Virus record (IMG/VR): IMGVR_UViG_3300025572_000001
Location: 1 to 64,000 of that record
Strand: one strand, 5' to 3'
Length of the DNA: 64,000 nt
Source of the DNA: a virus
Numbering within the stretch: position 1 is the first letter of the stretch; each line of letters starts with the position of its first letter. The position numbers were made by a program, and so were the translations under genes. Under the pieces are notes generated by a model, which saw nothing but the letters and a program-made list of their open reading frames with translations, made no database searches and was not told where the DNA came from. Below are positions 703 through 62,694 of the stretch, piece by piece.

Positions 703-1035
703 ATGGAGGTATTTCAGAAGGTTGAGGGTGCTGAGGCAGTCCTCTACGAGAAGGGAGTCTTCAAGTCAGCACCGGTATACACCCGAAACGGGTATCTTCA
801 CGCACAGGTACGAAGCGGATTCATCCGTCTGTCGGCGGACGGTGGTACGTCAAAGAAGGGCTGCGCATTATACTATCTGAGATGGAACGACCCAATTTAT
901 CAGGACGCCTACGGGCGTCTGATTGTGCACAAGACTGAGGGAGCACGAGACCTAGACCCTGGTTCTGTCCGCAGACTCACAGGTGGTCAGTCGTTCCCAG
1001 CGGTGGCTGCATTAACCAATGATCCTTGCAATTAA
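703..1035 (+). CDS. hypothetical protein
   Basis: 110-aa ORF with GGGAG upstream of ATG 703. No recognisable motif. Confidence 0.55.
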   Translation: MEVFQKVEGAEAVLYEKGVFKSAPVYTRNGYLHAQVRSGFIRLSADGGTSKKGCALYYLRWNDPIYQDAYGRLIVHKTEGARDLDPGSVRRLTGGQSFPAVAALTNDPCN

Positions 1036-1040
1036 TTGCA
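1027..1040. repeat. exact 14-bp palindrome TGCAATTAATTGCA
   Basis: Read directly. It straddles the stop codon (1033..1035) of ORF 703..1035. Confidence 0.95.
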
Positions 1041-1205
1041 CAGCGAGGAAAGTTCGTTAGGGTGAAGGGGATCGCAGCACCAATCCATGGAGGGACCATG
1101 AGAACCCCAAGAAGTAACCGAACGGTTTACAGGTGTCCCGACCCCTTCGCACTAAGGTCTAGGGTGATAGACGCTCATCTAAGTAGCAAAACCAAGGAGG
1201 TGTTC

Positions 1206-1628
1206 ATGAGCAAGAACGTTGCAATTCGCCTGTCGGTAGAAGACACGACTGCGCTTCATCGGAAGATCATCAAGCTGGTCGAGACCGCGAATGAATCAAG
1301 TGTCGCAGCTCGAAATGATGCACGAGTTCTTTACGATCTGGTTGGTGATTATCGTACCAGCTTCGAGGGTCTTCTGAACGTGGTGGCCGAGGTAGTGACA
1401 GGCGTTAAGGAACGGCAGGTCGTGGATATCGGTGCGCTTGAGCACAGCATGATTATCGCGAAGGGGGCCATCGAAGAGCTCGACAAGAGGCTCGATGTCT
1501 ACAGCACGCAGCCGTATGCAACCGTCCCGCATGTTGATGATCCCGACCCGTCGCTGGTGAACGCACTGGAATCTGCCTTTGCGGCATCAGACGATGACCT
1601 TCCGAAGTTCATCGACAAGAAAATCTAG
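1206..1628 (+). CDS. hypothetical protein
   Basis: ATG 1206 follows AAGGAGG (1194..1200). The track ORF 1026..1628 begins inside the palindrome and is probably too long. Confidence 0.6.
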   Translation: MSKNVAIRLSVEDTTALHRKIIKLVETANESSVAARNDARVLYDLVGDYRTSFEGLLNVVAEVVTGVKERQVVDIGALEHSMIIAKGAIEELDKRLDVYSTQPYATVPHVDDPDPSLVNALESAFAASDDDLPKFIDKKI

Positions 1629-1639
1629 GGCGGAAATTT

Positions 1640-1675
1640 CGTCAGGGTAGTGAAGTTAATTTCATTACCCTGACG
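1640..1675. repeat. 36-bp inverted repeat (10-bp arms CGTCAGGGTA/TACCCTGACG) enclosing the palindrome variant TGAAGTTAATTTCA
   Basis: Arms at 1640..1649 and 1666..1675. The variant palindrome at 1651..1664 shares the same centre (1657.5). Confidence 0.85.
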
Positions 1676-1690
1676 GCAGCGGAGGGCTGA

Positions 1691-1903
1691 ATGGCAATAA
1701 AAATCGTAAAGAAGCGGAACGCACCGGTAGCGAGGGAGCCTGCCCCTCTCGTGGAAGAAGTGCAAGAAACGCCGAAGACCGAAGCAACAAAGCCCGAACC
1801 GTCAGAATGCAGTTTCTGCGGTCACCTATACATTTACCCGTGTCACGGGAAGAGCGAGACCTGCATGAATGCACGATGGCGGAGGGGCGAAATCACAAAC
1901 TAG
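1691..1903 (+). CDS. small Cys-rich protein, N-terminus MAIKIVKK
   Basis: GGAGG upstream of the start. Contains CSFCG..C..C near the C-terminus and a Pro/Glu/Lys-rich linker. Confidence 0.5.
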   Translation: MAIKIVKKRNAPVAREPAPLVEEVQETPKTEATKPEPSECSFCGHLYIYPCHGKSETCMNARWRRGEITN

Positions 1904-1913
1904 GGGTAGAAGA

Positions 1914-2162
1914 GTGAAGCTCTACAGAGTGGAAATGGTTCTTTCGGCCACCTTGTACGTGAAGGCGGACGATGCTGTGCAGGCCCTGGAAAAGGCGAAG
2001 AAGCTGCACGGGAAGCGTTTGACTCTGGAGGGGACGAAGGACGTTGCAGTCTCCATTGCCGAGTTTGATTCGCTAAAACTGCCTGAGCAATCGTTTACGC
2101 CTATAGCCTGGATTTCTGGGCCGGACCCGAAGTTCGAGCCCGATGTCGTCTATGAGGGTTAG
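1914..2162 (+). CDS. hypothetical protein
   Basis: GTG 1914 is in the frame of track ORF 1869..2162. ATG 1935 is an alternative start. Confidence 0.45.
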   Translation: MKLYRVEMVLSATLYVKADDAVQALEKAKKLHGKRLTLEGTKDVAVSIAEFDSLKLPEQSFTPIAWISGPDPKFEPDVVYEG

Positions 2163-2167
2163 GGTCG

Positions 2168-2581
2168 ATGCCAATCGTCATCAAAAAGAAAGCGGGGGCT
2201 CCGAAACCGGAGCCCCTTATTCCAGAAGCCAAGGCTCCAAAGGCGAAACATCAGCCGAAGCACCTACTTGATCGCGTGTGCCTGAAATTGATTGCAAAGA
2301 ACCGGAACTTGCTGGTCCCGTGGATAATGATGGCGAGCTACGCCTACTACATTGCGGATACGCCCATCATTTCAGACGGGTGTTATGACAGCCTGTGCCG
2401 AGACCTTTTCCGCCACTATGACCAAGTGACCCACCGCCACAAGAGTTTCATTCAGAGGGAAAGCCTGAAGGCTGGCTCAGTCTTCCACCTCAAGGCCGAG
2501 GACTACCCAAGTATCGTCCGTAGCGCGGCGCATAGGCTAATGCAGGCTGCTTCTTCTGGTAGGGCAGATGATCTGCTATAA
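2168..2581 (+). CDS. hypothetical protein with a NAD-ligase domain-Ia-like motif (YYIADTPIISDGCYDSL)
   Basis: 137-aa ORF with N-terminus MPIVIKKK. The motif resembles the YY-x-D-x-P-x-ISD-x-EYD-x-L signature of LigA domain Ia (memory). Confidence 0.55.
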   Translation: MPIVIKKKAGAPKPEPLIPEAKAPKAKHQPKHLLDRVCLKLIAKNRNLLVPWIMMASYAYYIADTPIISDGCYDSLCRDLFRHYDQVTHRHKSFIQRESLKAGSVFHLKAEDYPSIVRSAAHRLMQAASSGRADDLL

Positions 2582-2584
2582 GTT

Positions 2585-2598
2585 TGCAATTAATTGCA
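2585..2598. repeat. exact 14-bp palindrome TGCAATTAATTGCA
   Basis: Lies in the gap after the stop at 2581. Its last base is the A of ATG 2598. Confidence 0.95.
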
Positions 2599-2894
2599 TG
2601 GAGACGACCATGAGCGCAGACAAGGAACTGATTGGCCTGCCGGAGGCCGTCCGGACGATGGCCGACCCGAGGATTACCGTGTCCAGCCTGATGAAGGCAA
2701 TCGAGGAAGGCAGGCTGGTGGCTCAAGATGACCCGAAGAGACCTGGCCGGAAGATGGTCAAGCTCGATGACGTGCAGGCGATGCTCAACCCACCAGCCGA
2801 AGAACCGAAGGTCGAAGAACCGAAGGTCGAAGAACCGAAGGTCGAAGAACCGAAGGCCGACACGGGCATCTTCATCAAGAAGCGTCGCAAGTGA
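2598..2894 (+). CDS. putative HTH DNA-binding protein (excisionase/MerR-like) with an (EEPKV)x4 repeat
   Basis: LIGLPEAVRTMADPRITVSSLMKAIEEGRL looks like a winged-HTH/Xis-type segment. Located two genes upstream of the serine recombinase. Confidence 0.5.
   Translation: METTMSADKELIGLPEAVRTMADPRITVSSLMKAIEEGRLVAQDDPKRPGRKMVKLDDVQAMLNPPAEEPKVEEPKVEEPKVEEPKADTGIFIKKRRK
2799..2858 (+). repeat. 15-bp tandem repeat GAAGAACCGAAGGTC x4 (last unit has 1 mismatch)
   Basis: Read directly. It is in frame and encodes EEPKV x4. Confidence 0.95.
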
Positions 2895-2905
2895 AATTAA
2901 TTTCA
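2892..2905. repeat. perfect variant palindrome TGAAATTAATTTCA
   Basis: A symmetric C-to-A / G-to-T variant of the main motif. It spans the stop TGA 2892..2894 and the first base of ATG 2905. Confidence 0.9.
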
Positions 2906-3051
2906 TGGGCAAGGTCATCAAGCTGACAAGTCGGGGGCCGGAGAAAGTCCCGGCCCCCAAGAAACTCACACCGCAGATGATTGCGCTGATAAAGGCCCTT
3001 GCCAGAGAAGGGGCACGTGAGGACCATAGGGCATCATTGAAAAATGGGTAG
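2905..3051 (+). CDS. small hypothetical protein (48 aa)
   Basis: ATG 2905 is in the frame of track ORF 2728..3051. It ends 3 nt before the recombinase start. Confidence 0.4.
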   Translation: MGKVIKLTSRGPEKVPAPKKLTPQMIALIKALAREGAREDHRASLKNG

Positions 3052-4992: not shown

Positions 4993-5539
4993 CATAGCGA
5001 TTGTCATCAATGGTTACCCCCGGTCGGGGAAGGACTCGGCTGCGAACCTGATCAGCGCAGCCTTATCGTTCGATTGGGTATACCACTCGGTAAGCAGTGT
5101 TGATCCTGTCCGACGCTTCTTGCAGGACTTGGGGGTCAGCACCAAGAAGAAGGGGCCACAGGAGCGGAAGCTGATGGCCGACATCCAGTCGCTTCTGAAC
5201 ACATATGACTGGCTTCCGATCCGACACACGGCCAAGCACGTGGACCGGCTGTTCAGGGTCAACCCTGACAGGAACTGCGTATGCTTCGTCCATATCAGGG
5301 AGCCTGACGCCATTAGGATGTTCAAGGGTCTGGTGGAGGCGAAGGGGTACACGTGCAAGACCATGTTCGTGGATAGGCAGGTAGCGAGGGAAGAGACCCT
5401 GAGCCTTTACCAGAACCACGCCGACACATCGGTCGAGCAGATGGAGTACGACATCGTGCTCGACAACAATTCTTCAATCGAGCACTTTGCAATTAATTGC
5501 AAAGCTATTGCCAAGATGATCATGGAGGACAAGCTTTGA
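4985..5539 (+). CDS. P-loop deoxynucleoside-monophosphate kinase-like protein (T4 gp1-like)
   Basis: The N-terminal IVINGYPRSGKDS resembles T4 dNMP kinase LSGVKRSGKDT. The C-terminal D-x-V-L-D-N-N-S-S-x-E resembles the gp1 C-terminus (memory). Confidence 0.6.
   Translation: MRSIAIVINGYPRSGKDSAANLISAALSFDWVYHSVSSVDPVRRFLQDLGVSTKKKGPQERKLMADIQSLLNTYDWLPIRHTAKHVDRLFRVNPDRNCVCFVHIREPDAIRMFKGLVEAKGYTCKTMFVDRQVAREETLSLYQNHADTSVEQMEYDIVLDNNSSIEHFAINCKAIAKMIMEDKL
5488..5501. repeat. exact 14-bp palindrome TGCAATTAATTGCA
   Basis: Lies inside the last 17 codons of the kinase-like gene (encodes FAINCK), 35 nt upstream of the ThyX start. Confidence 0.95.
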
Positions 5540-6946: not shown

Positions 6947-7001
6947 AAGAGATTCGTCGGACAATAATGGGGATGTCCGGCATATGGTGACTGGCTGACC
7001 G

Positions 7002-7039
7002 ACGCCAAGGGTAAATAAGCCCTTGGCGTTTTTTATTTT
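7002..7039 (+). terminator. rho-independent terminator
   Basis: Stem ACGCCAAGGG / CCCTTGGCGT with an 8-nt loop, followed by TTTTTTATTTT. Confidence 0.8.
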
Positions 7040-7051: not shown

Positions 7052-7065
7052 TGCAATTAATTGCA
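7052..7065. repeat. exact 14-bp palindrome TGCAATTAATTGCA
   Basis: Intergenic, 13 nt after the terminator T-tract. Confidence 0.95.
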
Positions 7066-7581: not shown

Positions 7582-7584
7582 GGA

Positions 7585-7833
7585 ATGGCAGCAGGTAGTT
7601 TCTGGGGGGACCTAGTAAGGAACTTACGGGAAGAAAGCGGCATCTCTCAACGATCCCTGGCTGAAAGAGCCAAGGTCTGCCGCTCCACACTTCGGCGGAT
7701 TGAAGCCGGAGAAATCTCCGCCGATGTCGATACTCTTGAGCGTATTCTCAATGTTTTCGGGTATGAACTGGACGCTTTCAGCAGGACTGACGGAGGGCGC
7801 TGTCACGCAGATTCAGCCTATTGCTATCGGTAA
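7585..7833 (+). CDS. XRE-family helix-turn-helix transcriptional regulator
   Basis: SGISQRSLAERAKVCRSTLRRIEAGE is a classic Cro/C1-type HTH. 82 aa. Confidence 0.75.
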   Translation: MAAGSFWGDLVRNLREESGISQRSLAERAKVCRSTLRRIEAGEISADVDTLERILNVFGYELDAFSRTDGGRCHADSAYCYR

Positions 7834-7877: not shown

Positions 7878-8396
7878 ATGGAGATGCCTGACATCGAAGC
7901 TCCAGACATCAACGAACTTTACCAGCTGTGCGACTTCGCGGAAACGCGACTGGAGCAGCTCGCTGGTGCCACTGATTTTGATGACGGCGGGGATGATGAT
8001 CCGCCGTCCGAGTGGGAGTGGGGCTGTCTGAACAAGACCCGCGCATGGCTGAAACAGCTCAAGGAAATCACGCCCGAGCAGGAGATCGACATGGCCATGG
8101 CCGTGCTCAAGAAGTACCGGGAAAGCCACGGCGTGATGGTCGTTCTCGACCTTTCGACCGATCATCTGTCCCAGGAAACGAAGCTTGCGTGGCTGGATGG
8201 GAAGCTGGAGCCGTATCTGACCTACAGGTACGATGATACGGGCTGGTGGTTGTGGACCTGCGCCGGGGAGCCGGAGTTAGAGAAGGTCCCCGAGGATTTG
8301 CAGACCATCATTAGGAAAGCCTCGGAGATTGGGTACGAGTGGATACGATTCGACAAGTATTCGCCCCGAGCTCATGGTTTTCCGGTTTACGAGTGA
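7878..8396 (+). CDS. acidic hypothetical protein
   Basis: 172-aa ORF. CACGGAGG precedes the ATG. D/E/W-rich. Confidence 0.6.
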   Translation: MEMPDIEAPDINELYQLCDFAETRLEQLAGATDFDDGGDDDPPSEWEWGCLNKTRAWLKQLKEITPEQEIDMAMAVLKKYRESHGVMVVLDLSTDHLSQETKLAWLDGKLEPYLTYRYDDTGWWLWTCAGEPELEKVPEDLQTIIRKASEIGYEWIRFDKYSPRAHGFPVYE

Positions 8397-8417
8397 AGTT
8401 AATTGCAAGGTATCGTA

Positions 8418-9981: not shown

Positions 9982-9995
9982 TGCAATTAATTGCA
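9982..9995. repeat. exact 14-bp palindrome TGCAATTAATTGCA
   Basis: Intergenic, 26 nt upstream of ATG 10022. Confidence 0.95.
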
Positions 9996-15346: not shown

Positions 15347-15351
15347 TTGCA
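15338..15351. repeat. exact 14-bp palindrome TGCAATTAATTGCA
   Basis: Straddles the stop at 15344..15346, 12 nt before GTG 15364. Confidence 0.95.
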
Positions 15352-19703: not shown

Positions 19704-19995
19704 GGCTTCCCGAGCCATTCTGCATGACCTGTCACCTGATGATCCACGGCGTGGTCTGTATTCCTGTGCAACGTTCATCCTGCTCCTGGTTGACGAGGGT
19801 CGATTCTTCGACGTTCGCAATCAGGCGGTTCTCGTCTCGCTCCTGCTTCTGGAAGACGTGAAGGATGAAAAGAAGGACGTTGACGGGCAGGAGGCAGTCT
19901 GGCGTGTCGAGGAAAAGCAATGGCAGCAGGATGCCAAGAAAATGCTGAGGCGGGCGAATTTGCAGGGGTATTATTTGCATACGCTGCGAAATTAA
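19489..19995 (+). CDS. hypothetical protein
   Basis: ATG 19489 follows GGAG/GGGAG. 168 aa with a protein-like composition. Confidence 0.5.
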   Translation: MIQEEVNARADDLTIVEQALPSQMLMMMIEEVQKAGFEVRADVMMHLQNAVAAPLSRLDTFSVSRIAKRVDEASRAILHDLSPDDPRRGLYSCATFILLLVDEGRFFDVRNQAVLVSLLLLEDVKDEKKDVDGQEAVWRVEEKQWQQDAKKMLRRANLQGYYLHTLRN

Positions 19996-20068
19996 TTGCA
20001 AAACCGCTTGCTTCCATCAAATCGGAAGTTAGAGTGCAGATGAAACTACCAATTCACGGAGGAATAAG

Positions 20069-23078: not shown

Positions 23079-23092
23079 TGCAATTAATTGCA
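23079..23092. repeat. exact 14-bp palindrome TGCAATTAATTGCA (16-bp palindrome with flanks, GTGCA..TGCAC)
   Basis: Intergenic, 61 nt upstream of ATG 23154. Confidence 0.95.
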
Positions 23093-38720: not shown

Positions 38721-38726
38721 ACGGAG

Positions 38727-45384: not shown

Positions 45385-45398
45385 TGCAATTAATTGCA
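45385..45398. repeat. exact 14-bp palindrome TGCAATTAATTGCA (16-bp with flanks)
   Basis: Intergenic, 12 nt before ATG 45411. Confidence 0.95.
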
Positions 45399-49093: not shown

Positions 49094-49529
49094 TATCATT
49101 CGGCGTGATGAGATCATTGCTCGCGCTCGCGAGTGGATTGGCACGCCCTACAGACATCAGGGCCGAAAAAAAGGCGTTGCAGTTGATTGCATTGGCCTGG
49201 TCTACGGTGTGTGGCTCGACCTTGGTTTGCCTCAGATCACCATCCCGGCGAACTACACGGAGAGCCCGTCCGGCACGATGCTTCAGCAGAATGCCGAGAA
49301 GTACCTCGTGCCGACCGACCGGAAGGACTTCTACCCAGGCGACGTGGCCGTCCTGTGGGGTTGGAAACAGGAACCGCAGCACTTTGCAATTGTGGGCGAG
49401 TACGCGGGCCGCACGACCATGATCCACGCCTTCTCGAAGCGCGGCTTGGTGGTCGAACACGGTTGGGATGACTTCTGGATGCAGCGCCTGGTGCGCATCT
49501 ACGAGTTTCCGGGGACGGAGGCGGTCTGA
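49077..49529 (+). CDS. NlpC/P60-family cell-wall peptidase (RcGTA g14-like)
   Basis: GTPYRHQGRKKGVAVDCIGLV (catalytic Cys) and a downstream HFAIV (His). Confidence 0.78.
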   Translation: MERVDSIIRRDEIIARAREWIGTPYRHQGRKKGVAVDCIGLVYGVWLDLGLPQITIPANYTESPSGTMLQQNAEKYLVPTDRKDFYPGDVAVLWGWKQEPQHFAIVGEYAGRTTMIHAFSKRGLVVEHGWDDFWMQRLVRIYEFPGTEAV

Positions 49530-52099: not shown

Positions 52100-54771
52100 T
52101 GGTTACGACGCCGAAACTCGGAGTGAACCTTCTTGCCACTAATACGGTGAACAAGGAGGTCGTCATCAATGAAGGATTTGTCACCTTCGATGCTCTCATC
52201 GCAAGGGTGGCCAAATCTATTTCCAATACGCCCCCGGCAGAGCCGCAGGATGGTGATGTCTATATCGTCGGCACCAGCCCGATCAACGAGTGGAACGGTT
52301 ACGCGAACCATATCGCTTTCTGGTTCAACGGCTGGCACCTGATCAACCCGCCCGACAAGATCAAGATGTGGGTGGAGTCCACGGGCTCGTACTGGACCAA
52401 GCAGACCCTCAGCTGGACGGAAGACCCTGCCGGTACGCCTTCGGCCCTGAACGACCTGACGGACGTTTCTGGTAACACGCCCGATCACGGCGACTTCCTG
52501 ATGTGGGACCAGACGGCTGGCAAGTGGGTCCCGGCCCCGCTGGCCAACCCAGACCTTGAAATCGGGGAGCTGTCCAATGTCGTGATCACGAATGCCGAGG
52601 CTGGTCAGGCGCTGGTCTACGACAGCATTGATGGCGTGTGGCGTAACCAGACGATCAGCGCAAGCGGCGGGGCCTCCACCCTGGCGCAGCTGAACGATGT
52701 CGATATGTCCGGCGCAGATGAAGGGCACGTGCCCTACTGGGACGGCGAAAAGCTGAAGTTCAAGTCCCCGCAGCAAGTCATCCCGCTGCCGCATCTGCGC
52801 GATCTGCCGGATGTGTACGTGAACCATCTACTGGTGGGTGACGTGCTCGCCTGGAACGGTGCCGCTTGGGTACCGTCTCAGGCTGCGGTTACCTACAGCT
52901 TCCTCGGCATGGTGGACGGCCCCCAGACGTTTGAGGGTAACGCCAACAAGTTCCTGGTGGTGGACCCGACCGAGAGCGAGCTTGTCTTCAAGAGCCTTGA
53001 TGACCTGATAAACATCAGCGAGATGAAGCTCATCGAGCTGGCTGACACCCCGAACAGCTACGGCAACCAAGGGCAGGTGCTGGTCGTCAACTCCAACAAG
53101 ACCGGCTTCGTTTTCGCATCTATGCCGCCGACCATTACGGTCAAGGTGGGTGGTAGCACCATCACGACTGAGCTCAACGAACTTGAGTTCGAGGGCCTTA
53201 CGGTCACTTCGTCTGGCTCCGGCAAGGCGAAGGTCAAGTTCGAGATGCCGCCCATCGACTTCCCGCAAATTGATTTCAGGGTCAACGATCAGCTTTTGGC
53301 GGACCCTATTGCAATTAATTTCACAGGTGCGGGTGTCGTCGCGGTCGAAGACGAGGAGAATCCGAACCATTACATCGTCACCATAGACAGCGGTGGCGGG
53401 GCCCTGCATTCACTGGAGGACGTGGACTTCAGCGAGCAGTCGCCGCAGGACGGGCATACGCTGGTCTATGACGCCCTGAAGGGAAAGTGGAAGCCTGGTC
53501 AGGCGGCGGGAAGCGTTGGCGTGGTTGACGGGACTGTGGAACCGGCGCTCTACGAGTTCGGCCCCTTTGCGCCTCCTCGGCCCAACATGTTCCCGGACCG
53601 CTTCAATGCGCCGTCCGCGATTGTGATGGATATCAAGAACCGGGGCATGGTGGTCCAGCCCGGTTCGCAACCGTCTGGCGTCAAGCACTGTCTGGTCTCC
53701 CGCTCCCTGATCAACACCATTGCCCCGTGGCAGGTCACGGCTCGCGTGGCTCCGACCGGTTTCGAGGCGGGGGGTCATGCCGGTGGCATCGCCATTCAGC
53801 GTGCTGCCAATGGTGCGATGGTTTTCCTGGTGCTGGGCAACTCGAACTCGGACACCCAGTACAGCATCCGATTCGGTTATGTGAACGCATCGGGTGCCGA
53901 GACCATCGTCACCACCGAGCCGAATCATTACCAGTGGCTCCGCCTGGTGTTCGACGGCAATAACATCCGTGCCTACGTCTCCTATGACGGCCTGATCTGG
54001 CACCAGTTCGGACAGGTGAGCGCCGCCACCGTCCTCGGCGGAGCTCCGAACAAGGTGGCTATCGACAACCGCGTCCAGTCTGCCACGACCGGCGAGGTGG
54101 GTGTGCTCGTCACCTACTGGGATGACCCGGACTTCCCGGCTGAGACCCGGACCCGACAGGGTGTGGTCAATGTCACCGTTGGCGGCTTGCAGGACGTTGA
54201 TCTGGGGGATCAGCCTCTGGAAGACGGTCAGGCTCTCGTCTGGGACGCCGACAGGCAGGTTTGGACCGCAGGCAATCCGGTTGGCGGCGGCGGGCCTGGT
54301 GGACCGGTTGTGGGTGAGCTCGATGACCTGACGGACGTGGACACCTCCAACTACCCGCCGCAGCATGGTCAGGCACTCGTCTGGGACGAAATCAACAACG
54401 TCTGGAGGCCGGGGGCCCAGGTTGGTGGCCAGGGCCCTGTCGAGGTGGACATCTCGTGCTTCATCCCCGGTGAGCCGGAAGCCGATGAGATCGTGGCCCG
54501 GTTTATAGCCGTCAGGTCGCTCACGTTGCCGTCCGGTTTTATGGGAAGCAAGGCGTTCGCTCAGGAAGCCCCGAGCAACACGGTGATTTTCAACGTCGCC
54601 AAGAACGGATCGGTCATCGGCACGATCCAGTTCGACGCTGACGAAAACGAGGGCGTATTCGCTTCGTTGGACGGGGCAACACTGGATGCGGGGGACCGAT
54701 TGGACATCGTTTCCCCGCCCAACGTCTACGGCATCTCCGACATAGGCATCACTTTCGCAGGGAGTCGCTAA
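52099..54771 (+). CDS. tail fibre protein with a DUF2793-like N-terminus
   Basis: ATG 52099 overlaps the previous stop (TGATG). TPKLGVNLLATNTVNKEVVINEGFVTFDALI..PQDGDVYIVG resembles DUF2793 (memory). Confidence 0.58.
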   Translation: MVTTPKLGVNLLATNTVNKEVVINEGFVTFDALIARVAKSISNTPPAEPQDGDVYIVGTSPINEWNGYANHIAFWFNGWHLINPPDKIKMWVESTGSYWTKQTLSWTEDPAGTPSALNDLTDVSGNTPDHGDFLMWDQTAGKWVPAPLANPDLEIGELSNVVITNAEAGQALVYDSIDGVWRNQTISASGGASTLAQLNDVDMSGADEGHVPYWDGEKLKFKSPQQVIPLPHLRDLPDVYVNHLLVGDVLAWNGAAWVPSQAAVTYSFLGMVDGPQTFEGNANKFLVVDPTESELVFKSLDDLINISEMKLIELADTPNSYGNQGQVLVVNSNKTGFVFASMPPTITVKVGGSTITTELNELEFEGLTVTSSGSGKAKVKFEMPPIDFPQIDFRVNDQLLADPIAINFTGAGVVAVEDEENPNHYIVTIDSGGGALHSLEDVDFSEQSPQDGHTLVYDALKGKWKPGQAAGSVGVVDGTVEPALYEFGPFAPPRPNMFPDRFNAPSAIVMDIKNRGMVVQPGSQPSGVKHCLVSRSLINTIAPWQVTARVAPTGFEAGGHAGGIAIQRAANGAMVFLVLGNSNSDTQYSIRFGYVNASGAETIVTTEPNHYQWLRLVFDGNNIRAYVSYDGLIWHQFGQVSAATVLGGAPNKVAIDNRVQSATTGEVGVLVTYWDDPDFPAETRTRQGVVNVTVGGLQDVDLGDQPLEDGQALVWDADRQVWTAGNPVGGGGPGGPVVGELDDLTDVDTSNYPPQHGQALVWDEINNVWRPGAQVGGQGPVEVDISCFIPGEPEADEIVARFIAVRSLTLPSGFMGSKAFAQEAPSNTVIFNVAKNGSVIGTIQFDADENEGVFASLDGATLDAGDRLDIVSPPNVYGISDIGITFAGSR
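53310..53323. repeat. 1-mismatch palindrome copy TGCAATTAATTtCA
   Basis: Intragenic, within the fibre gene. Confidence 0.9.
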
Positions 54772-55846: not shown

Positions 55847-58800
55847 TGACGGAAGCGCGGATCACAAAAGCCGGTGGTCAGGCTGTAATTAAGAACGAGG
55901 CAAAAGCCCGGACTACGGTTGCCGGGGCTCTTGTTCCGTTCAAGGGTCAGGAGGCTGCTGCCCGCGTATCCGCTCTGGCGGCGAATGTTGTCTTCCGGCC
56001 AAAAGCTCCCCGTGTTCCGAAGGGTCCGGTGTTCATGAACGCGATCTACTCGGAGGACCGAGGGATTGTAGGTGACCAGGTATATGACAAGGTTGAGCTG
56101 CTTTTGACGGCGGACCATAAGGGCATCAGGGACTTGAGCCGCAAGCGGCGTGGATTGCTCACTTCGATATCGGGTGGTCCCGGCCTTGAGTCCGGCCTGG
56201 CCCGTTTCGGTACGCATTGCATGAGGTTCGCGTGGCTATACCGTGGTTCTCTCGAAGCTGCAGTTCCATACATTCGCGCCGACAACAGCGACGGGGCTTT
56301 TCTTTTCGGCAGCCAGCCATTCACGGTTGAAGTGTGGGTGAGGGTGGACAACAGCTCCCCCAACAGCAAGCCCGTTGTCGGTGTCTGGAGTGATGATTCG
56401 ACCAACAAGAGCTGGCTTCTGAAGCTTCAGTCCGGTTCAGTGCAGTTCCTCATGTCGCCTGACGGCACGACCGTGGATACCATCCAGGGTACGATTGTCG
56501 AGTTTAACGAGTGGAACCATATCGCCGTTGACAGGGACAAGACCGGCAAGGTCCGCTTGTACCTTAACGGCCAGATGGTCGCCTCTGAACAAGTGAACTA
56601 CTCGTTGAATCAGGCAGTGAATCGAGACCTGACAGTTGGTTACATCGGCGGATTCGATCCTGAGTCCAGCATAGCCACAGACCAGAGCCTGGGGTCGTTT
56701 GTCGGGTACATGGATGATCTCAGGATCACGCGGGGTTGGGCCCGTTATGAGTCCGACACAACCTATCAGGTGCCCGACCAATCGTTCCCGTTTGAGCCGT
56801 TCGAGGTCCCTGACTACTTCGATGACGGTGACCCGTACTACAACAACGTGGTGCTTCTGCTTGACCCCCTGGCGAACGCCAACGTACAGGATTTCAGCCC
56901 GAATCCTGCTCCGGTCTCGGGTAACATGTCCACCACCACCCTGACCCTGTGCGGCATCAGCGATGCCCGCGTATTTGCAGACAATGGTACGGTGGTTTCG
57001 TTTGCTGGCAACGGGGAGCGGTTCAACCTCAATGGTCCGGTGACCATTGAGGTGGTGTGTATGTATCAGGACACCGCAATCACTGGCTACAACATCTTGC
57101 AAGTGCCGAACCACTTCCGTGTCAGGGTGGCCCGAAACACCACGTGGGTACAGGCGTACAAGAACGGAGCCTGGATGACCCTATATGGCGGAAGCTCTGA
57201 CTGGGGTTATTGGAGGCATTTCATCGTCACTCGCGACGAGCAGAACACGACCCGCATCTACTACAACGGCAGGTTCGTGGCGAAGTACGAGAACGATGTG
57301 TGGGATGATCCGGGGACTGATGCTCCACTGATGCTCACGCCGGATGCGTACATATACAGCGGTGTGCGTATAGGTCCTGCCCGCATCACGAAGGGTGTGG
57401 CCCGCTGGACGCACGAGACGCCTTACGGTGACGTTGAACTATACCGTATCCCGCTAAAGACTCAGGCCGTCATTCCGACGCCGCCTGAGCCGACTTACCC
57501 GTACCAGTTGCCGGTGATCAATCCAGGTGCCGAAAATGCCTCGAACAGGATGTGGTCGGTTGTCACCGGCACCAGACCGGACATTGTGTCCTCCCCGACC
57601 CCGCATGACGGAGATTACGCCTATGACTCCGGGCAGGCTCGGTTCAATTGGTATTTCCAGCACATTGAAATACCGAAAGCCTACTGGGCGGATATTGACG
57701 CTGGGCTTGTGCAATTAATTGCAAATGCCTGGGCAACCGGAACACTCACCGGAGACGACCGGGGTGGTCTGAATGTCATCGCCTTGGATGAGGGGAATAA
57801 CATTCTGCACCACCGGCTTGTGCTGGCTGAAGACGTGGATGACTGGACCGAGATCAGCCATGATTTTCGCCTCCCGAAGGGGGCGAGAGCCATCCGCATC
57901 GGTGTCCGGTCCTACCGCGACCCGGAGAACGAGGCTTTGCAGCTCTACTGGGACGACTTCAGCCTGACGCTGGAGAAAGAGACGGAGCCACTGGATAGCA
58001 TAGAGCTTCTGCGCCTTGGCAGGCTTGGGGTGGGCCCCTGGCGTCCGGCCCTTGGTGGGGACCTGGTGGAAGTCGTGTCCCGGTACGGGCTGATGTCTGT
58101 AGGCGTCCACGCTGGTCTGGCGGCCTATTTTGTCGATATTCCGATCCCCGATGAACTGTGGGAGGACATTGACGATGAAGAGACGCCTCTGACGGCAGTG
58201 GTCGATTATCACCTGGTCGGCCAACTCAATATGACTGGTGCAGTGGGCCGTTTCTTCATTGACGCTAGAGACGAGCACTACGATCCAATTGGGCGCATCT
58301 ATGACGCTGAGGAGCCGTACTCGGTCGATGCCTTTGGTGAGGACCGGACGCTGGAGGTAAAGCTACCGGCTGGAACCAGATCGCTGTCGGTAGGCATCAT
58401 CGCGGAGCAGAACGACCTTGAGTTTCTGGCCGGTCACCCGGTGACCTACATTGCTGCCCGCATAGAGCGTAGGGGTAGCAGCAATATGCTTGGCCCGGTT
58501 GATATACCGATGTACCCGCTCTATGACTACCTGAAGATTGAGTTCGCCAACTACAACGTCCACCCGCTGATAACCGATGGGGCGAACCCAGGTGGCGTTA
58601 TTGTTGCCGATGATGCTGATTCTGAAATCGGCACCACGGTTTCCCTGCGTATGCCGCCGATAACTCACAACCAGACGGCTTATATAGACCTCCCCATATG
58701 GTCATACCCTGGTTTCGATACGGTGACGATAAGGTACCGAACGGACAGCGAGAACAATTGGGACTGGTTCCAGGTCTTCGTTGATGGCGTCCAGCAGATG

Positions 58801-60652: not shown

Positions 60653-60666
60653 TGCAATTAATTGCA
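60653..60666. repeat. exact 14-bp palindrome TGCAATTAATTGCA
   Basis: 3 nt after the fibre gene stop. Confidence 0.95.
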
Positions 60667-60670: not shown

Positions 60671-60714
60671 GGGGTTGGGTCATCACCTGACCCGCCTCCG
60701 TGCTTTGTTGTTTT
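60671..60714 (+). terminator. probable rho-independent terminator
   Basis: Imperfect stem GGGGTTGGGTCA / TGACCCGCCTCC (one mismatch, two G-T pairs), then a T-rich tract GCTTTGTTGTTTT. Confidence 0.5.
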
Positions 60715-60751
60715 AATAGCAGTTTCGTTGAGCTATGTTCCGCCCAGACTG

Positions 60752-60765
60752 TGCAATTAATTGCA
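60752..60765. repeat. exact 14-bp palindrome TGCAATTAATTGCA
   Basis: 19 nt upstream of endolysin ATG 60785. Confidence 0.95.
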
Positions 60766-60784
60766 ACTACCCGGAGTTTTTATC

Positions 60785-61858
60785 ATGCGGGCAGACATTG
60801 CGGGTGTCATAACCAACTACGCTAAGAAGTACGGGTATGAACCAGCGGCCCTGAAGGCTGTTGCCTGGGTAGAAAGTGCTGGGACGTTCTTCTGGACCGT
60901 GAACGGGGAAGAGCTGCCCCCGATCCGCCCCGAGGTGCACAAGTTCTATCAGTTCCTGTCAGGGGCGAAACGTGACAAGGCCGTAAAGGCTGGCCTGGCA
61001 CACCCACAGATGAATGGCGTGAAAATCCCCAGCAGCTGGTCTGGGCGTTACGAGTTCTTCAAGAAAATGCACGCCATCGACGCCGATGCGGCCATTCAGG
61101 CCACCTCGTGGGGCATCGGCCAGGTCATGGGCTTCCACTGGAAGTTCCTGGGCTTCAAGTCTCCACAGGAGATGATGACCTACGCCAAGTCTGGCATTGA
61201 CGGCCAGATGGAGCTCATGTGCCGGTTCATCCAGAAGAACCAGAACCTCGATACGGCCCTGAAGAACCGTAACTGGGCGGCATTCGCCCATGGATACAAC
61301 GGCCCCGCCTACAAGAAGAACCAGTATGACAAGAAGCTGAAGGAAGCCTACGAGAGGTTCCGCAAAGCTCCGGTGGATGCCGATGTACGCATGATTCAGG
61401 AGCGTCTGAAGGCGCTGGGCTTCTACACGGGCATCGTGGACGGGTACAAGGGACCCCTCACGACCGAAGCCGTGAAGAAGTTCCAGAAGGCGGCTGGTCT
61501 CGTAGTTGATGGAAACGTATCGACCATCACCGTTGAAATGATCGAGGACTACATTGCCGCCCAGAACTCACAGAAGGCACGAAACCAGATTCCCACCATA
61601 GGAGCTGCCGGTGCTGCTGTCACGACTGTGGCCAAGCCCCTCGTGGAAGCCATCACTGACGGAGACCTGGCCGACGCAATCGAGAAGACCCAGGGTATTG
61701 CTGACGGGCTGTACAAGCTACTGGCCCTGATCAATCTCCCCACCGTCTTCACCGCCGTGATCATGGCCTGTGTCGTCGGCTTCGTGCTGTATCAGTTGCT
61801 CACCCGAGTGGGTGACGATGAAAAAATCCAGAAGTTGAAGGAGGCGGCTGAGGCATGA
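60785..61858 (+). CDS. endolysin: DUF3380-type N-acetylmuramidase + PG_binding_1 domain + C-terminal TM helix
   Basis: ALKAVAWVESAG, SWGIGQVMGFHW and WAAFAHGYNGPAYKKNQYDKKL blocks. PG-binding region IQERLKALGFYTGIVDGYKGPLT. C-terminal LPTVFTAVIMACVVGFVLYQLL. Confidence 0.83.
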   Translation: MRADIAGVITNYAKKYGYEPAALKAVAWVESAGTFFWTVNGEELPPIRPEVHKFYQFLSGAKRDKAVKAGLAHPQMNGVKIPSSWSGRYEFFKKMHAIDADAAIQATSWGIGQVMGFHWKFLGFKSPQEMMTYAKSGIDGQMELMCRFIQKNQNLDTALKNRNWAAFAHGYNGPAYKKNQYDKKLKEAYERFRKAPVDADVRMIQERLKALGFYTGIVDGYKGPLTTEAVKKFQKAAGLVVDGNVSTITVEMIEDYIAAQNSQKARNQIPTIGAAGAAVTTVAKPLVEAITDGDLADAIEKTQGIADGLYKLLALINLPTVFTAVIMACVVGFVLYQLLTRVGDDEKIQKLKEAAEA

Positions 61859-62109
61859 CCAGCCTGGTTGCTTTCCTTATTGGAAATCGAGTGGGTCGGT
61901 TGATTGCTACCGGCCTACTCATTGCTGGCATCGTGGCGCTCATCCTCTGGAGGGTGTTCACTGCCGGAAAAAATGCTGCGGTCGTTGACCAGAAGCTGAA
62001 AGAGCTTCAGTCGATCAAGACCAAGGTGGAGGTAGACAATGAGATTGCTCGTCTTCCTGCTTCTGAGCGTCGTGAGCGTCTTCGCCGTTGGGTGCACGAC
62101 GAAGGGTGA
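61855..62109 (+). CDS. membrane protein of the lysis cassette (i-spanin-like or holin-like)
   Basis: N-terminal TM segment LIATGLLIAGIVALILW followed by a charged helical region. ATGA overlap with the endolysin gene. Confidence 0.45.
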   Translation: MTSLVAFLIGNRVGRLIATGLLIAGIVALILWRVFTAGKNAAVVDQKLKELQSIKTKVEVDNEIARLPASERRERLRRWVHDEG

Positions 62110-62245
62110 CTTCTGTACGTTAGCCTTTCCCCACTACTACTCGGCCAAGACCATTGAAGTCATGACCGACAGGGAAGTGGAGCAGGCTCTTAGACATAAC
62201 GAGTTGGGTGAACGCCTGTGTGGTTGGAAAGCAAGAAAGAATTAG
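62039..62245 (+). CDS. o-spanin-like lipoprotein, start embedded in the previous gene
   Basis: GGAGG lies 6 nt upstream of the ATG. Signal plus lipobox-like segment LLLSVVSVFAVGC. Overlaps 61855..62109 by 71 nt in another frame (Rz/Rz1-like). Confidence 0.5.
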   Translation: MRLLVFLLLSVVSVFAVGCTTKGDFCTLAFPHYYSAKTIEVMTDREVEQALRHNELGERLCGWKARKN

Positions 62246-62289
62246 GGCCAGAAGAAATAGGTGGGCAGGGTAAAGGCACAGGTGATGAC

Positions 62290-62676
62290 ATGCAGGTAAA
62301 GGAACAAGTAAGAAGCGTTGCGGATCACGTGATCACCGTGGCCTTGGCTCGTGCGTCAATGGTGCTGGCGCTGCCGCTCATCAGCCTGCTGTTCTGGTCT
62401 TACGAAGGCAAGAGAAACGCTGAACTTCAGGACATCAAGGATGAGGTCGTTCGCGTTGAGAAGCTTGCTGTAGAGGCAAGAGCGAAGGCCGTAGAAGTCA
62501 GTGACAGATTGATCATAGTGGAGACCCGCCAGCATAGGGACGCGGCAGACGGGGAGAAGTTTCAGCGGGAAACCCTGTCGCGGCTGGATCGGATGCAGGA
62601 TGCTCTGATTCAGCTGTCGAACTCGGTAGCCGCCCTCAACGCTACCGTGAAAAGCCTGGCTGAGCGCCAGCGATAA
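62290..62676 (+). CDS. membrane-anchored coiled-coil protein (lysis-cassette associated)
   Basis: ATG 62290 follows AGGTGAT. One TM segment VLALPLISLLFW followed by a coiled coil. Confidence 0.4.
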   Translation: MQVKEQVRSVADHVITVALARASMVLALPLISLLFWSYEGKRNAELQDIKDEVVRVEKLAVEARAKAVEVSDRLIIVETRQHRDAADGEKFQRETLSRLDRMQDALIQLSNSVAALNATVKSLAERQR

Positions 62677-62680
62677 CTTT

Positions 62681-62694
62681 TGCAATTAACTGCA
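62681..62694. repeat. 1-mismatch palindrome copy TGCAATTAAcTGCA
   Basis: Intergenic, 4 nt after the stop at 62676. Confidence 0.9.

What the first reader, a model, noticed from the sequence alone, without database searches (positions are those of the whole stretch)
1027..62694. Genome-wide perfect 14-bp palindrome TGCAATTAATTGCA concentrated at gene boundaries (operator/stoperator-like network)
By eye I find exact copies at 1027, 2585, 5488, 7052, 9982, 15338, 16707, 23079, 28805, 31616, 34693, 37093, 45385, 57710, 60653 and 60752 (16 copies). One-mismatch copies are at 12664, 18609, 21334, 24910, 30535, 38707, 39442, 43037, 53310 and 62681 (10 copies). Weaker copies lie at 8394, 19987, 31061 and 49178. 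A given 14-mer is expected about 64000/4^14 = 0.0002 times, and this one is AT-rich in a GC-rich genome. Thirteen of the 16 exact copies lie in the short gaps between + strand genes or straddle a stop or start codon. Several abut rho-independent terminators (7052, 34693, 38707, and the pair around 60671..60714). No conserved flank, transposase or promoter hexamers accompany the motif, so a dimeric DNA-binding protein site is the simplest reading. Precedents for many dispersed sites controlling a whole replicon are the gp71 stoperators of mycobacteriophage L5 and the KorB OB operators of plasmid RK2. A unidirectionally transcribed, integrase-bearing phage would suit stoperator-type silencing. 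Candidate binders encoded here are the XRE-HTH (7585..7833), the HTH proteins upstream of the integrase (2598..3051) and the ParB-like protein (15914..16840). Alternative readings are transcript-processing sites (weak 5-bp stem/tetraloop RNA hairpin), sites of nicking or modification, or a host-factor site.
Basis: partly seen in the sequence, partly recalled or inferred. Interest (0 to 1): 0.85.

Follow-up and report, generated by a model that had tools for sequence, protein, structure and literature searches.

The report
Phage-lineage palindromic DNA punctuation sites
A 14-base palindrome really is scattered at even intervals along this phage genome, mostly at gene ends and just upstream of promoters, and the same site is kept across a large group of related phages, so it is most likely the docking site of a still unidentified phage DNA-binding protein that controls or insulates transcription.

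Summary
There are 16 exact and 10 one-mismatch copies at the stated coordinates, against none expected, and they are strongly biased to gene junctions.

The 14-mer is this phage's version of a lineage-wide site. Its core is TGCA-N6-TGCA with an A+T-rich centre. I found it enriched 8- to 20-fold in nine more isolated siphoviruses of Rhodobacter, Rhizobium, Stenotrophomonas and Vibrio, and in 61 metagenomic loci. Orthologous copies are conserved (91% identity) while their flanks drift (64%).

Sites sit on or just after stop codons, before terminators, and 5-10 bp upstream of the -35 of sigma-70-type promoters. Extra copies inside long genes keep the gaps below about 4-5 kb, so spacing is far more even than chance.

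The best reading is a genome-wide operator or roadblock network for a phage-encoded dimeric DNA-binding protein. The binder is not identified.

- The XRE-HTH family is absent from the gammaproteobacterial relatives.
- The putative HTH proteins by the integrase have no detectable domain or homologue.
- The ParB-like protein is absent from two Vibrio phages that keep the motif, and present in an Arthrobacter phage that lacks it.

No accessible paper mentions the motif. I rate it a new variant of a known kind.

The parts
1027..1040 (.). exact copy; its central TAA is the stop codon of ORF 703-1035
2585..2598 (.). exact copy, 4 nt after the stop at 2581 and directly 5' of the Shine-Dalgarno sequence of the next gene (start 2610)
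5488..5501 (.). exact copy inside the 3' end of ORF 4955-5539, just upstream of the ThyX-like gene
7052..7065 (.). exact copy in an intergenic gap, 22 nt after terminator 7001-7030 and upstream of the GNAT/XRE gene pair
9982..9995 (.). exact copy, intergenic, 27 nt before the start at 10022
12664..12677 (.). one-mismatch copy (TGCAGTTAATTGCA) inside the glycosyltransferase-like ORF 12032-13528
15338..15351 (.). exact copy; central TAA is the stop of ORF 14540-15346; 13 nt before the start at 15364
16707..16720 (.). exact copy inside the ParB-like gene. A copy lies at the same place in the TM16 and DLP5 orthologues, and orthologous copies are kept in IMG/VR relatives
18609..18622 (.). copy with a centre variant (TGCAATCAATTGCA) inside the large-terminase gene; conserved in relatives
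21334..21347 (.). one-mismatch copy inside the PPDK-like kinase gene; identical in three relatives
23079..23092 (.). exact copy, 11 nt after the stop at 23068
24910..24923 (.). one-mismatch copy; central TAA is the stop of ORF 24208-24918
28805..28818 (.). exact copy, 9 nt after the DNA polymerase stop and upstream of the portal gene
30535..30548 (.). one-mismatch copy inside the portal gene
31061..31074 (.). two-mismatch copy (CGCAATCAATTGCA; one arm mismatch) inside ORF 30701-31561
31616..31629 (.). exact copy, intergenic, 8 nt upstream of a promoter-like site
31638..31665 (+). sigma-70-like promoter TTGACG-16-TATTCT downstream of copy 31616. It is the only promoter-like site, on either strand, that the scan found in 28000-47000
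34693..34706 (.). exact copy, 9 nt after the major-capsid stop, followed by a GC hairpin and TTTT
37093..37106 (.). exact copy, intergenic (46 nt after the stop at 37047), followed by a hairpin
38707..38720 (.). centre-variant copy, 11 nt after a stop, followed 2 nt later by a terminator
38723..38749 (+). intrinsic-terminator-like hairpin with a T-run
39442..39455 (.). one-mismatch copy; central TAA is the stop of ORF 39226-39450; the orthologous copy in relatives is a perfect match
43037..43050 (.). one-mismatch copy in the middle of the 4.9-kb tape-measure gene; lost in one relative
45385..45398 (.). exact copy, 4 nt after the tape-measure stop and 13 nt before the next start
49178..49191 (.). 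two-mismatch copy (TGCAGTTGATTGCA), 85 nt after the stop at 49093; inside the longest-ORF call 49077-49529
53310..53323 (.). one-mismatch copy inside the tail gene 52090-54771
57710..57723 (.). exact copy inside the 3.2-kb tail gene 55846-59034
60653..60666 (.). exact copy, 4 nt after the stop at 60649, followed by a hairpin
60752..60765 (.). exact copy, about 20 nt upstream of the muramidase-like gene start at 60785
62681..62694 (.). one-mismatch copy, 5 nt after the stop at 62676
2283..2296 (.). weak copy (TGAAATTGATTGCA) inside ORF 2168-2581
2892..2905 (.). weak copy (TGAAATTAATTTCA); its TGA is the stop of ORF 2568-2894
8394..8407 (.). weak copy (TGAAGTTAATTGCA); its TGA is the stop of ORF 7878-8396
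19987..20000 (.). weak copy (CGAAATTAATTGCA); its TAA is the stop of ORF 19450-19995
7001..7030 (+). intrinsic-terminator-like hairpin preceding copy 7052
15914..16840 (+). ParB-like protein gene. The fold resembles ParB/Noc/KorB, but box II reads GGHHRF. Candidate binder, now disfavoured
7585..7833 (+). XRE-type HTH gene following a GNAT gene. Candidate binder, disfavoured as the lineage-wide factor

Best explanation
The 14-mer is this phage's version of a lineage-wide palindromic DNA site. Its core is TGCA-N6-TGCA. The two half-sites lie one helical turn apart, and the centre is A+T-rich and differs between phages.

It is most likely the recognition site of a phage-encoded homodimeric DNA-binding protein. 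Together the copies would form a genome-wide operator or roadblock ('punctuation') network on a genome that is transcribed in one direction only.

The sites mark the downstream end of transcription units. They lie on or just after stop codons, ahead of terminators, and 5-10 bp upstream of the -35 element of sigma-70-type promoters. Additional copies inside long genes keep inter-site distances below about 4-5 kb.

When bound, the protein would stop or insulate read-through transcription and/or damp the adjacent promoters. This would give global silencing in an episomal or integrated prophage, or temporal shut-off.

Shown: the sites, the selection acting on them, their placement, their even spacing and their spread across the lineage. 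Inferred: that a protein binds them, that it is phage-encoded, and that the output is transcriptional.

The binder is not identified. The candidate that best fits the phylogenetic profile is a lineage-specific all-helical, DUF3102-like protein (phrog_17202). Its gene lies outside the window.
For: Non-random and selected.
- 16 exact copies against 0 expected.
- Orthologous copies in relatives that are 66-79% identical keep 91% identity, against 64% in the 25-nt flanks. This includes intragenic copies read in different frames.

Lineage-wide. Sites with at most one arm mismatch, observed / expected:
- extended genome 49 / 2.5
- RcZahn 26 / 2.4
- TM16 24 / 2.2
- DLP5 41 / 2.8
- RcTiptonus 49 / 4.7
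- KarBoss 37 / 3.3
- PG28 37 / 2.3
- PJ32 17 / 2.1
- SIO-2 26 / 1.3
- the unrelated Arthrobacter phage KellEzio 0 / 0.6
. In addition, 161 sites occur in 390 kb of 61 IMG/VR loci. Hosts span the Alpha- and Gammaproteobacteria, which argues for a phage-encoded factor.

Site anatomy fits a dimeric HTH-type protein.
- TGCA...TGCA are the invariant columns and the centre varies by phage.
- Half-site variants break the RNA pairing.

Placement.
- 11 of 16 exact copies touch non-coding DNA against 0.76 expected.
- The motif start is typically -8 to +11 nt from the last base of a stop codon.
- Terminators follow or precede some copies.
- A motif followed 5-10 nt later by a -35 element recurs in ten cassettes left of the window, at 31616, and upstream of the phrog_17202 gene in RcZahn, DLP5, RcTiptonus, PG28, KarBoss and about 17 metagenomic loci.

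Even spacing.
- The coefficient of variation of the gaps is 0.49-0.68 against about 0.95 for random placement.
- The largest gap is about half the null, also with gene-aware nulls and with junction sites held fixed.
Against: - No binding protein has been tied to the site.
- No small HTH family is shared by all genomes that carry the motif.
- The phrog_17202 protein is only weakly DNA-binding-like. Its PDB fold hits to sigma factors are not significant, and its viral-library hits are to DUF3102 proteins of unknown function.
- PJ32 and L142 lack a motif in front of that gene.
- The promoters next to the site have near-consensus hexamers and a variable 5-10 nt offset. The regulatory logic (repression, insulation or activation) is therefore open.
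- Several members are reported as, or look, lytic. A silencing role would then be less obvious.
- Even spacing would equally suit a non-transcriptional, architectural or replication-linked role.
Confidence: 0.5

Rival explanations
1. The sites are loading or binding sites of the phage ParB/Noc/KorB-like protein (window 15914-16840). This protein would spread or slide from evenly spaced sites to silence transcription, as KorB does at the OB sites of RK2, or to organise or partition the genome.
For: - The AF2 model (pLDDT 82) matches Noc, ParB and KorB over about 215-230 columns, including the DNA-binding domain.
- It is one of the few predicted DNA-binding proteins shared by the window phage, RcZahn, TM16, DLP5, RcTiptonus, KarBoss and PG28.
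- A motif copy sits at the same codons inside the gene in the window phage, TM16 and DLP5, as parS does in some parB genes.
- Even spacing suits a spreading protein.
- PJ32, which lacks the gene, has the most eroded set of sites.
- DLP5 lysogenises as a phagemid (PMC7326821).
Against: - SIO-2 has no ParB-like ORF (HMM E<10) yet keeps 26 sites against 1.3 expected, with even spacing. PJ32 lacks it and still has 17 against 2.1.
- tblastn at E<=1e-8 finds the ParB-like protein in only 4 Vibrio phage records, while the phrog_17202 protein matches 34 at E<=1e-6.
- Arthrobacter phage KellEzio has a 33%-identical homologue in the same glycosyltransferase/ParB-like/terminase context, and no site at all.
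- The CTP-binding box GERRxR is replaced by GGHHRF, which is sulfiredoxin-like.
Confidence: 0.12
2. The sites serve a non-transcriptional, genome-wide DNA function linked to the conserved replication/recombination or packaging machinery. Examples are architectural bridging or compaction, centromere-like sites of an episomal prophage, or start or pause sites for replication or recombination proteins.
For: - Even spacing, with intragenic gap-filling copies, is seen in six genomes.
- The gene families that co-occur with the motif in all seven genomes profiled are mostly replication/recombination and head genes: DnaB, primase, SF2 helicase, RecA-like, Cas4-like, PolA, an AAA ATPase, TerL, portal and capsid.
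- A lambda O-like initiator, a type that binds palindromic iterons, is encoded next to DnaB.
Against: - The strong preference for gene junctions, and the recurrent position just upstream of -35 elements, are not expected for a purely architectural or replication role.
- There is no iteron-like cluster of sites at the initiator gene.
- The O-like family is not detected in RcTiptonus or the Vibrio phages.
Confidence: 0.15
3. The sites are operators of the XRE-type HTH protein (7585-7833), acting as a Cro/CI-like repressor.
For: - The layout of a conserved outer 4 bp and a variable A+T-rich central 6 bp in a 14-bp site resembles operators of 434-type Cro/CI proteins (my own knowledge).
- The protein is a clear HTH_3 domain.
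- It is conserved next to an acetyltransferase gene in RcZahn and TM16 at 52-55% identity.
Against: - The family is not found in DLP5, KarBoss or PJ32 by jackhmmer, although these keep the same half-sites. PG28 and SIO-2 were not searched for it.
- The gene pairing and the best NCBIfam match point to a toxin-antitoxin-type antitoxin.
- A non-orthologous change of binder with an unchanged site is unlikely.
Confidence: 0.08
4. A host factor common to Proteobacteria binds the sites. One example is the RNA polymerase alpha C-terminal domain, which would use the A+T-rich centre as an UP element. Another is a nucleoid-associated silencer.
For: - At promoters the motif spans roughly -58 to -45, which is the position of the distal UP subsite (UP-element geometry from my own knowledge).
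- Conservation across host classes could reflect a conserved host protein.
- PJ32 has an A+T-rich tract instead of the motif at one such promoter.
Against: - The invariant part is the G+C-containing TGCA arms, not the A+T centre.
- Most copies have no promoter nearby, and many are intragenic.
- A capped scan of bacterial genomes showed only scattered single copies.
Confidence: 0.07
5. The sites act at the RNA level, as a small hairpin or a processing or translation signal in intercistronic mRNA. Alternatively they are targets of a sequence-specific DNA modification or restriction-type enzyme; the core contains GCA-N6-TGC.
For: - All copies are transcribed in the sense orientation, and many abut Shine-Dalgarno sequences, especially in DLP5.
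- The bipartite core resembles type I/IIB recognition sequences (my own knowledge).
Against: - The hairpin is only -2.5 kcal/mol and no better than shuffles. Frequent variants abolish it. The arms are conserved in sequence with no compensatory changes.
- There is no Rfam match in the window.
- Phages normally avoid restriction sites rather than accumulate them, and the inner positions are conserved too.
Confidence: 0.06

Closest known systems
Stoperators of mycobacteriophage L5 and other cluster A phages (bound by repressor gp71)
   Same: Dozens of copies of one short site are dispersed over a phage genome, concentrated in short intergenic gaps. The proposed action is to block transcription throughout the genome.
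   Different: - L5 sites are asymmetric and oriented with transcription (my own knowledge). Here the sites are palindromic with no consistent polarity.
- Here copies also fill long genes at even intervals.
- The site is conserved across phages of two proteobacterial classes.
- The binder is unknown and the link to lysogeny is uncertain.
KorB and its OB operators on plasmid RK2 (a ParB-family regulator)
   Same: Both involve a 13-14 bp palindrome in about a dozen or more dispersed copies. Some copies lie immediately upstream of -35 elements, others far from promoters or inside genes. A ParB-fold protein is encoded here too.
   Different: The presence of the ParB-like gene does not track the motif: SIO-2 and PJ32 lack the gene, and KellEzio has the gene without sites. 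The CTP-binding box is not conserved. There are 2-4 times more sites, and they are evenly spaced.
C1 operators of phage P1, and the conserved inverted repeats (CIRs) bound by the phiC31 repressor
   Same: One phage repressor has about 17-20 operators scattered over a large temperate phage genome, often next to promoters (my own knowledge).
   Different: Those sites are tied to promoters of specific operons and are confined to close relatives. Here there are many promoter-less and intragenic copies, even spacing, and deep conservation across the lineage.
Noc binding sites (NBS) and dispersed centromere sites (N15 SopB/sopC)
   Same: Both are 14-16 bp palindromes distributed along a replicon and bound by a ParB-family dimer (my own knowledge). 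DLP5-type relatives are episomal prophages.
   Different: No ParA partner has been identified. The ParB-like gene is dispensable for keeping the motif. The sites show a strong gene-junction and promoter-proximal bias.

Membership tests
Stoperator network (L5 gp71 type) | Many dispersed copies of one site, far above chance | tested here: met
Stoperator network (L5 gp71 type) | Sites concentrated in short intergenic gaps | tested here: met
   11 of 16 exact copies touch non-coding DNA against 0.76 expected. However, about a third of the copies are intragenic.
Stoperator network (L5 gp71 type) | Asymmetric site with a fixed orientation relative to transcription | tested here: not met
   The site is a perfect palindrome. 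Arm-variant polarity differs between genomes: KarBoss 26:9, RcZahn 4:13, DLP5 5:5.
Stoperator network (L5 gp71 type) | Bound by the phage immunity repressor and blocks elongating RNA polymerase | not testable with these tools
   This needs ChIP or EMSA and transcript mapping.
ParB/KorB/Noc protein with parS/OB/NBS sites | A ParB-family protein (N-terminal NTPase domain plus HTH domain) is encoded by the replicon | tested here: inconclusive
   Fold matches to Noc, ParB and KorB have E of about 1e-6 over 215-230 columns. However, box II reads GGHHRF instead of GERRxR, and Pfam sees only a short ParB_N stretch.
ParB/KorB/Noc protein with parS/OB/NBS sites | Protein and sites co-occur | tested here: not met
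   SIO-2 and PJ32 keep the sites without the gene. KellEzio has the gene without sites.
Sigma-70-type promoter | -35 and -10 hexamers with 16-18 bp spacing within or at a fixed place relative to every copy | tested here: not met
   Only a subset (11 copies in the 82.7-kb extended genome) has a promoter 8-9 nt downstream. The other copies have none.
Intrinsic terminator or structured RNA element | A stable stem with compensatory variation; a T-run for terminators | tested here: not met
   The hairpin is -2.5 kcal/mol with z between -0.9 and -2.0. Variants abolish the pairing. There is no Rfam match in the window.
Miniature mobile element or repeat with conserved flanks | Conserved sequence beyond the core, target duplications, a transposase | tested here: not met
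   No flank consensus exists. Flank identity is 64% against 91% for the motif.

The most novel reading that the evidence does not exclude
The palindrome is the site of a new family of phage DNA-binding proteins, possibly the lineage-specific DUF3102-like phrog_17202 protein. This family would 'punctuate' a unidirectionally transcribed 80-100 kb genome at even intervals of about 2-4 kb. It would insulate every transcription unit, or organise the chromosome. The system would have been kept unchanged across siphoviruses of Rhodobacterales, Rhizobiales, Xanthomonadales and Vibrionales.
Probability: 0.3. Interest if true: 0.75.

Novelty: new variant of a known kind. Interest (0 to 1): 0.62.

Why it matters
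If a single phage protein reads these sites, it would be a master regulator or organiser for a widespread group of 80-100 kb siphoviruses. The group includes Delepquintavirus, RcZahn and RcF-cluster phages, TM16-like rhizobiophages, and the SIO-2/VHS1-like vibriophages used in aquaculture phage-therapy work. Their gene regulation is essentially unstudied.

The site gives an immediate handle in several ways:
- It is a bait for identifying the protein.
- It is a marker for recognising members of the lineage in metagenomes.
- It provides a map of transcription-unit boundaries.

The even spacing, with intragenic 'filler' copies, is unusual for operator networks. It would make testable the idea that phages use protein roadblocks or insulators at regular intervals.

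Tried and rejected
- megablast of the window against INPHARED found no close relative.
- Literature searches for the exact 14-mer, the DLP5 variant and the 12-mer core found nothing relevant. The RcZahn and DLP3 papers do not mention a repeat. Searches on SIO-2/VHS1, the Mur box and DUF3102 were unhelpful.
It gave no host information.
- The idea that the right arm TTGCA acts as the -35 element of a promoter was rejected for the window, because there is no -10 element at 16-18 nt. It does seem to happen at a few RcTiptonus sites.
- A sigma-54 promoter, CRP/FNR, PurR/LacI-type boxes, the TraR box, ArgR, IHF, Fis and H-NS sites were considered from memory. All were rejected on spacing or on the invariant positions.
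- ParB-like protein as binder: initially favoured, then weakened by KellEzio, PJ32 and SIO-2.
- Lambda O-like initiator (gp51-like) and the small gp59-like and MerR-like families: none is present in all motif-bearing genomes.
- The structure prediction of the phrog_17202 protein gave only non-significant sigma-factor-like PDB hits, plus DUF3102 hits.
- Polarity of arm variants: not consistent across genomes.

Full report

Yes. An exact scan finds 16 copies of TGCAATTAATTGCA at exactly the coordinates given, with none in 100 dinucleotide-preserving shuffles. Allowing two mismatches gives 33 copies against 0.12 expected. Three more two-mismatch copies (371, 2283, 2892) were overlooked.

The window is about 56% G+C and is coding on the + strand throughout. 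Under a deliberately generous gene model (96% coding), 11 of the 16 exact copies touch non-coding DNA, where 0.76 would be expected (p<2e-4). The figure is 15 of 26 for copies with at most one mismatch.

The copies hug the upstream gene's stop codon.
- In five cases the central TAA of the motif is the stop codon.
- In two weak copies the leading TGA is the stop.
- Otherwise the motif usually begins 4-11 nt after the last base of the stop codon.
- The distance to the next start codon varies from 0 to about 105 nt.

Only 16707 and 57710 among the exact copies are deep inside genes.

The scan tool confirms the terminator directly after 38707 (38723-38749) and one just before 7052 (7001-7030). The hairpins after 34693 and 60653 are visible but fall outside the tool's loop and T-run criteria.

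**2. What genome is this?**

PHROG and Pfam scans identify the following:
- a large serine integrase (3055-4752);
- a ThyX-like enzyme;
- nucleotide-sugar enzymes;
- a ParB-like protein (15914-16840) just upstream of the large terminase (17414-19330);
- a PPDK-like kinase;
- family A DNA polymerase, portal, protease, capsid and tail genes.

There is no close nucleotide relative among deposited phages. By protein, the nearest are Rhodobacter phage RcZahn (portal 61%), Rhizobium phage RHph_TM16 (51%), the Stenotrophomonas phages DLP_5, DLP_3 and Summit (41%), and the ~80-kb SIO-2/VHS1-like Vibrio siphoviruses (35-40%). All of these are 80-100 kb and transcribed in one direction.

Exact-protein look-ups extended the window by 8.7 kb on the left and 10 kb on the right with 100% overlap. 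The source contig is about 92 kb. A GcrA-like gene and alpha-type promoters point to an alphaproteobacterial host.

**3. The motif is a signature of the whole lineage.**

An IMG/VR scan for the exact 14-mer recovered many contigs with several copies. All of them proved to be relatives.

In complete genomes of isolates I counted sites of the form TGCAA-N4-TTGCA with at most one arm mismatch, and compared them with first-order Markov simulations:

| Genome | Sites | Expected |
|---|---|---|
| extended genome | 49 | 2.5 |
| RcZahn | 26 | 2.4 |
| TM16 | 24 | 2.2 |
| DLP5 | 41 | 2.8 |
| RcTiptonus | 49 | 4.7 |
| KarBoss | 37 | 3.3 |
| PG28 | 37 | 2.3 |
| PJ32 | 17 | 2.1 |
| SIO-2 | 26 | 1.3 |
| KellEzio (unrelated Arthrobacter phage) | 0 | 0.6 |

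The centre differs by phage: TTAA here, TCAA/TTGA in DLP5, TCGA in RcTiptonus, CATA in TM16. The columns TGCA...TGCA are nearly invariant everywhere. Sixty-one further IMG/VR loci of the lineage carry 161 sites in 390 kb.

In alignments with relatives that are 66-79% identical, the motif columns are 91% identical and the 25-nt flanks 64%. Twelve of 14 orthologous copies are kept, including the intragenic ones in the ParB-like, terminase and kinase genes. Intragenic copies use different reading frames, so the constraint acts on the DNA.

I found no paper that mentions the motif.

**4. Anatomy and placement.**

The two TGCA half-sites are 10 bp apart centre to centre, so they lie on one face of the helix. 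This is the classic layout for a dimeric helix-turn-helix protein.

As RNA, the hairpin is worth only -2.5 kcal/mol and is no better than shuffles. The frequent half-site variant TGAAA removes it, and there are no compensatory changes. Rfam finds nothing in the window.

(a) Promoter proximity.
- In the 4.2 kb left of the window, ten small genes are each preceded by stop codon, then motif, then 9 nt, then (C/A)TTGCA-N16/17-CTAGWGA, with the start codon about 72 nt after the motif.
- Inside the window, copy 31616 lies 8 nt upstream of TTGACG-16-TATTCT, the only promoter-like site the tool reports in 28-47 kb.
- The same arrangement, a motif 5-10 nt upstream of a near-consensus TTGACA...TAnnnT promoter, recurs in front of one conserved gene (phrog_17202). 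It is seen in RcZahn, DLP5, RcTiptonus, PG28 and KarBoss, and in about 17 metagenomic loci.
- At these promoters the motif spans roughly -58 to -45.
- Most copies, however, have no promoter.

(b) Even spacing.
- The gaps between sites are much more regular than random: coefficient of variation 0.49-0.68 against about 0.95.
- The largest gap is about half of that expected: 4.1 against 8.1 kb in the window, 5.2 against 9.9 kb in DLP5, and 4.4 against 8.5 kb in RcTiptonus.
- For the coefficient of variation, p is at most 0.006 in all six genomes. For the largest gap, p is at most 0.013 in five of them and not significant in TM16.
- The regularity holds with a null that respects gene junctions.
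- It also holds when the junction sites are fixed and only the intragenic copies are randomised. That last test is not significant in TM16.
- Intragenic copies therefore sit preferentially in long genes and fill the gaps.

**5. Who binds?**

- The XRE-HTH (7585-7833) is a clear HTH_3 protein. It sits behind a GNAT gene and most resembles antitoxins. It is found in RcZahn, TM16 and, as generic XRE hits, RcTiptonus, but not in DLP5, KarBoss or PJ32. PG28 and SIO-2 were not searched for it.
- The ORFs upstream of the integrase have no domain. The ORFs called there (2568-2894) have no homologue in relatives.
- The ParB-like protein was attractive at first.
  - Its model (pLDDT 82) matches Noc, ParB and KorB over both the N-terminal and DNA-binding domains.
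  - It is shared by seven motif-bearing genomes.
  - A motif copy sits at the same codons of the gene in three of them.
  - However, an HMM finds no such protein in PJ32 or SIO-2, and both keep the motif. SIO-2 has 26 evenly spaced sites.
  - tblastn at E<=1e-8 finds it in only four Vibrio phage records, whereas the phrog_17202 protein matches 34 at E<=1e-6.
  - Arthrobacter phage KellEzio has a 33%-identical homologue in the same gene context, with no site.
  - Its box II is GGHHRF rather than GERRxR.
- Families present in all seven profiled motif-bearing genomes and absent from KellEzio are TerL, PolA, portal, capsid, an AAA ATPase, DnaB, primase, an SF2 helicase, a RecA-like protein, a Cas4-like nuclease and phrog_17202.
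- phrog_17202 is all-helical with a conserved HTH-like segment. Its fold hits are DUF3102 proteins and, non-significantly, sigma factors.
- phrog_17202 is the best remaining candidate, but the evidence is thin. Its gene lies beyond the part of this phage's genome that I could reach.

**6. Mechanism.**

The data fit best a genome-wide operator or roadblock network for a phage-encoded dimeric protein.
- The sites sit at the ends of transcription units and immediately upstream of promoters.
- Filler copies mean that no stretch longer than about 4-5 kb is free of a site.

That is what one would design to stop read-through, or to silence a long genome transcribed in one direction. DLP5-type relatives are known to persist as episomal prophages.

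The offset to the -35 varies between 5 and 10 nt, and the promoters are near-consensus. These two points argue for insulation or repression rather than face-of-helix activation.

I put this reading at about 0.5. The rivals are:
- ParB-like loading sites (0.12);
- an architectural or replication-linked role (0.15);
- XRE operators (0.08);
- a host factor or UP element (0.07);
- an RNA-level or modification target (0.06).

**7. Comparison and novelty.**

The closest known systems are the L5 stoperators, the KorB-OB system of RK2, the P1 C1 operators, the phiC31 CIRs and the Noc or SopB site arrays. This case differs in four ways:
- it is palindromic and has no polarity;
- it is evenly spaced, with intragenic fillers;
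- it is conserved almost unchanged across phages of two proteobacterial classes;
- it lacks an identified binder.

It fails the stoperator criterion of oriented asymmetric sites. It also fails the ParB criterion that protein and sites co-occur.

I rate it a new variant of a known kind, with interest about 0.6.

Noticed in passing
window 5497-6474, 10022-15346, 15364-15813, 20069-25791: A conserved set of nucleotide and sugar enzymes is shared with RcZahn, TM16, DLP5 and the Vibrio relatives. It comprises a ThyX-like enzyme, a dCTP deaminase/dUTPase, a PPDK-like kinase, two phosphatase-like proteins, epimerases, a glycosyltransferase and a UDP-glucose dehydrogenase. It suggests hypermodified DNA or glycan synthesis.
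   Followed up: no
window 76-408 (3' part of the gene; full gene in L128 6350-6892): A phage-encoded GcrA-like cell-cycle regulator (PF07750) points to an alphaproteobacterial host.
   Followed up: no
L130 322-4173 (the 4.2 kb immediately left of the window): Ten tandem cassettes each consist of a stop codon, the motif, a sigma-70-like promoter and a conserved 5'UTR, in front of small genes. They look like duplicated early-gene expression units.
   Followed up: partly
window 7135-7833: A GNAT acetyltransferase gene is followed by an XRE-HTH gene. The pair resembles a toxin-antitoxin module (sub-threshold NCBIfam match to a Y4mF/HipB-type antitoxin). The pairing is conserved in RcZahn and TM16.
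   Followed up: partly
window 3055-4752: A large serine integrase is present here. Nothing is annotated as an integrase in the RcZahn, TM16 or DLP5 records (1-2 kb at the end of the first two were not retrieved), so the lysogeny strategy seems to vary within the lineage.
   Followed up: no
window 15914-16840: The ParB-like protein has GGHHRF (sulfiredoxin-like) in place of the ParB CTP-binding box GERRxR. The glycosyltransferase / ParB-like / terminase gene order is kept even in Arthrobacter phage KellEzio.
   Followed up: partly
L131+L132 (RcTiptonus); L135+L136 (KarBoss); L119+L120 (RcZahn): Arm variants show strand bias within single genomes. TACAATCGATTGCA runs 12:3 with transcription in RcTiptonus, and the variant arm is upstream 26:9 in KarBoss. 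In RcZahn the bias is 4:13 the other way. The cause is unexplained.
   Followed up: partly
L120 8369-9586 (RcZahn gp66) and its homologues; the gene lies outside the window: The lineage-specific protein phrog_17202 (DUF3102-like, all-helical) has a near-consensus promoter. In many genomes the motif lies 5-10 nt upstream of that promoter's -35 element.
   Followed up: partly
all copies: The core contains GCA-N6-TGC. From memory, this is the recognition sequence of the type IIB restriction enzyme AlfI. I could not check this here.
   Followed up: no
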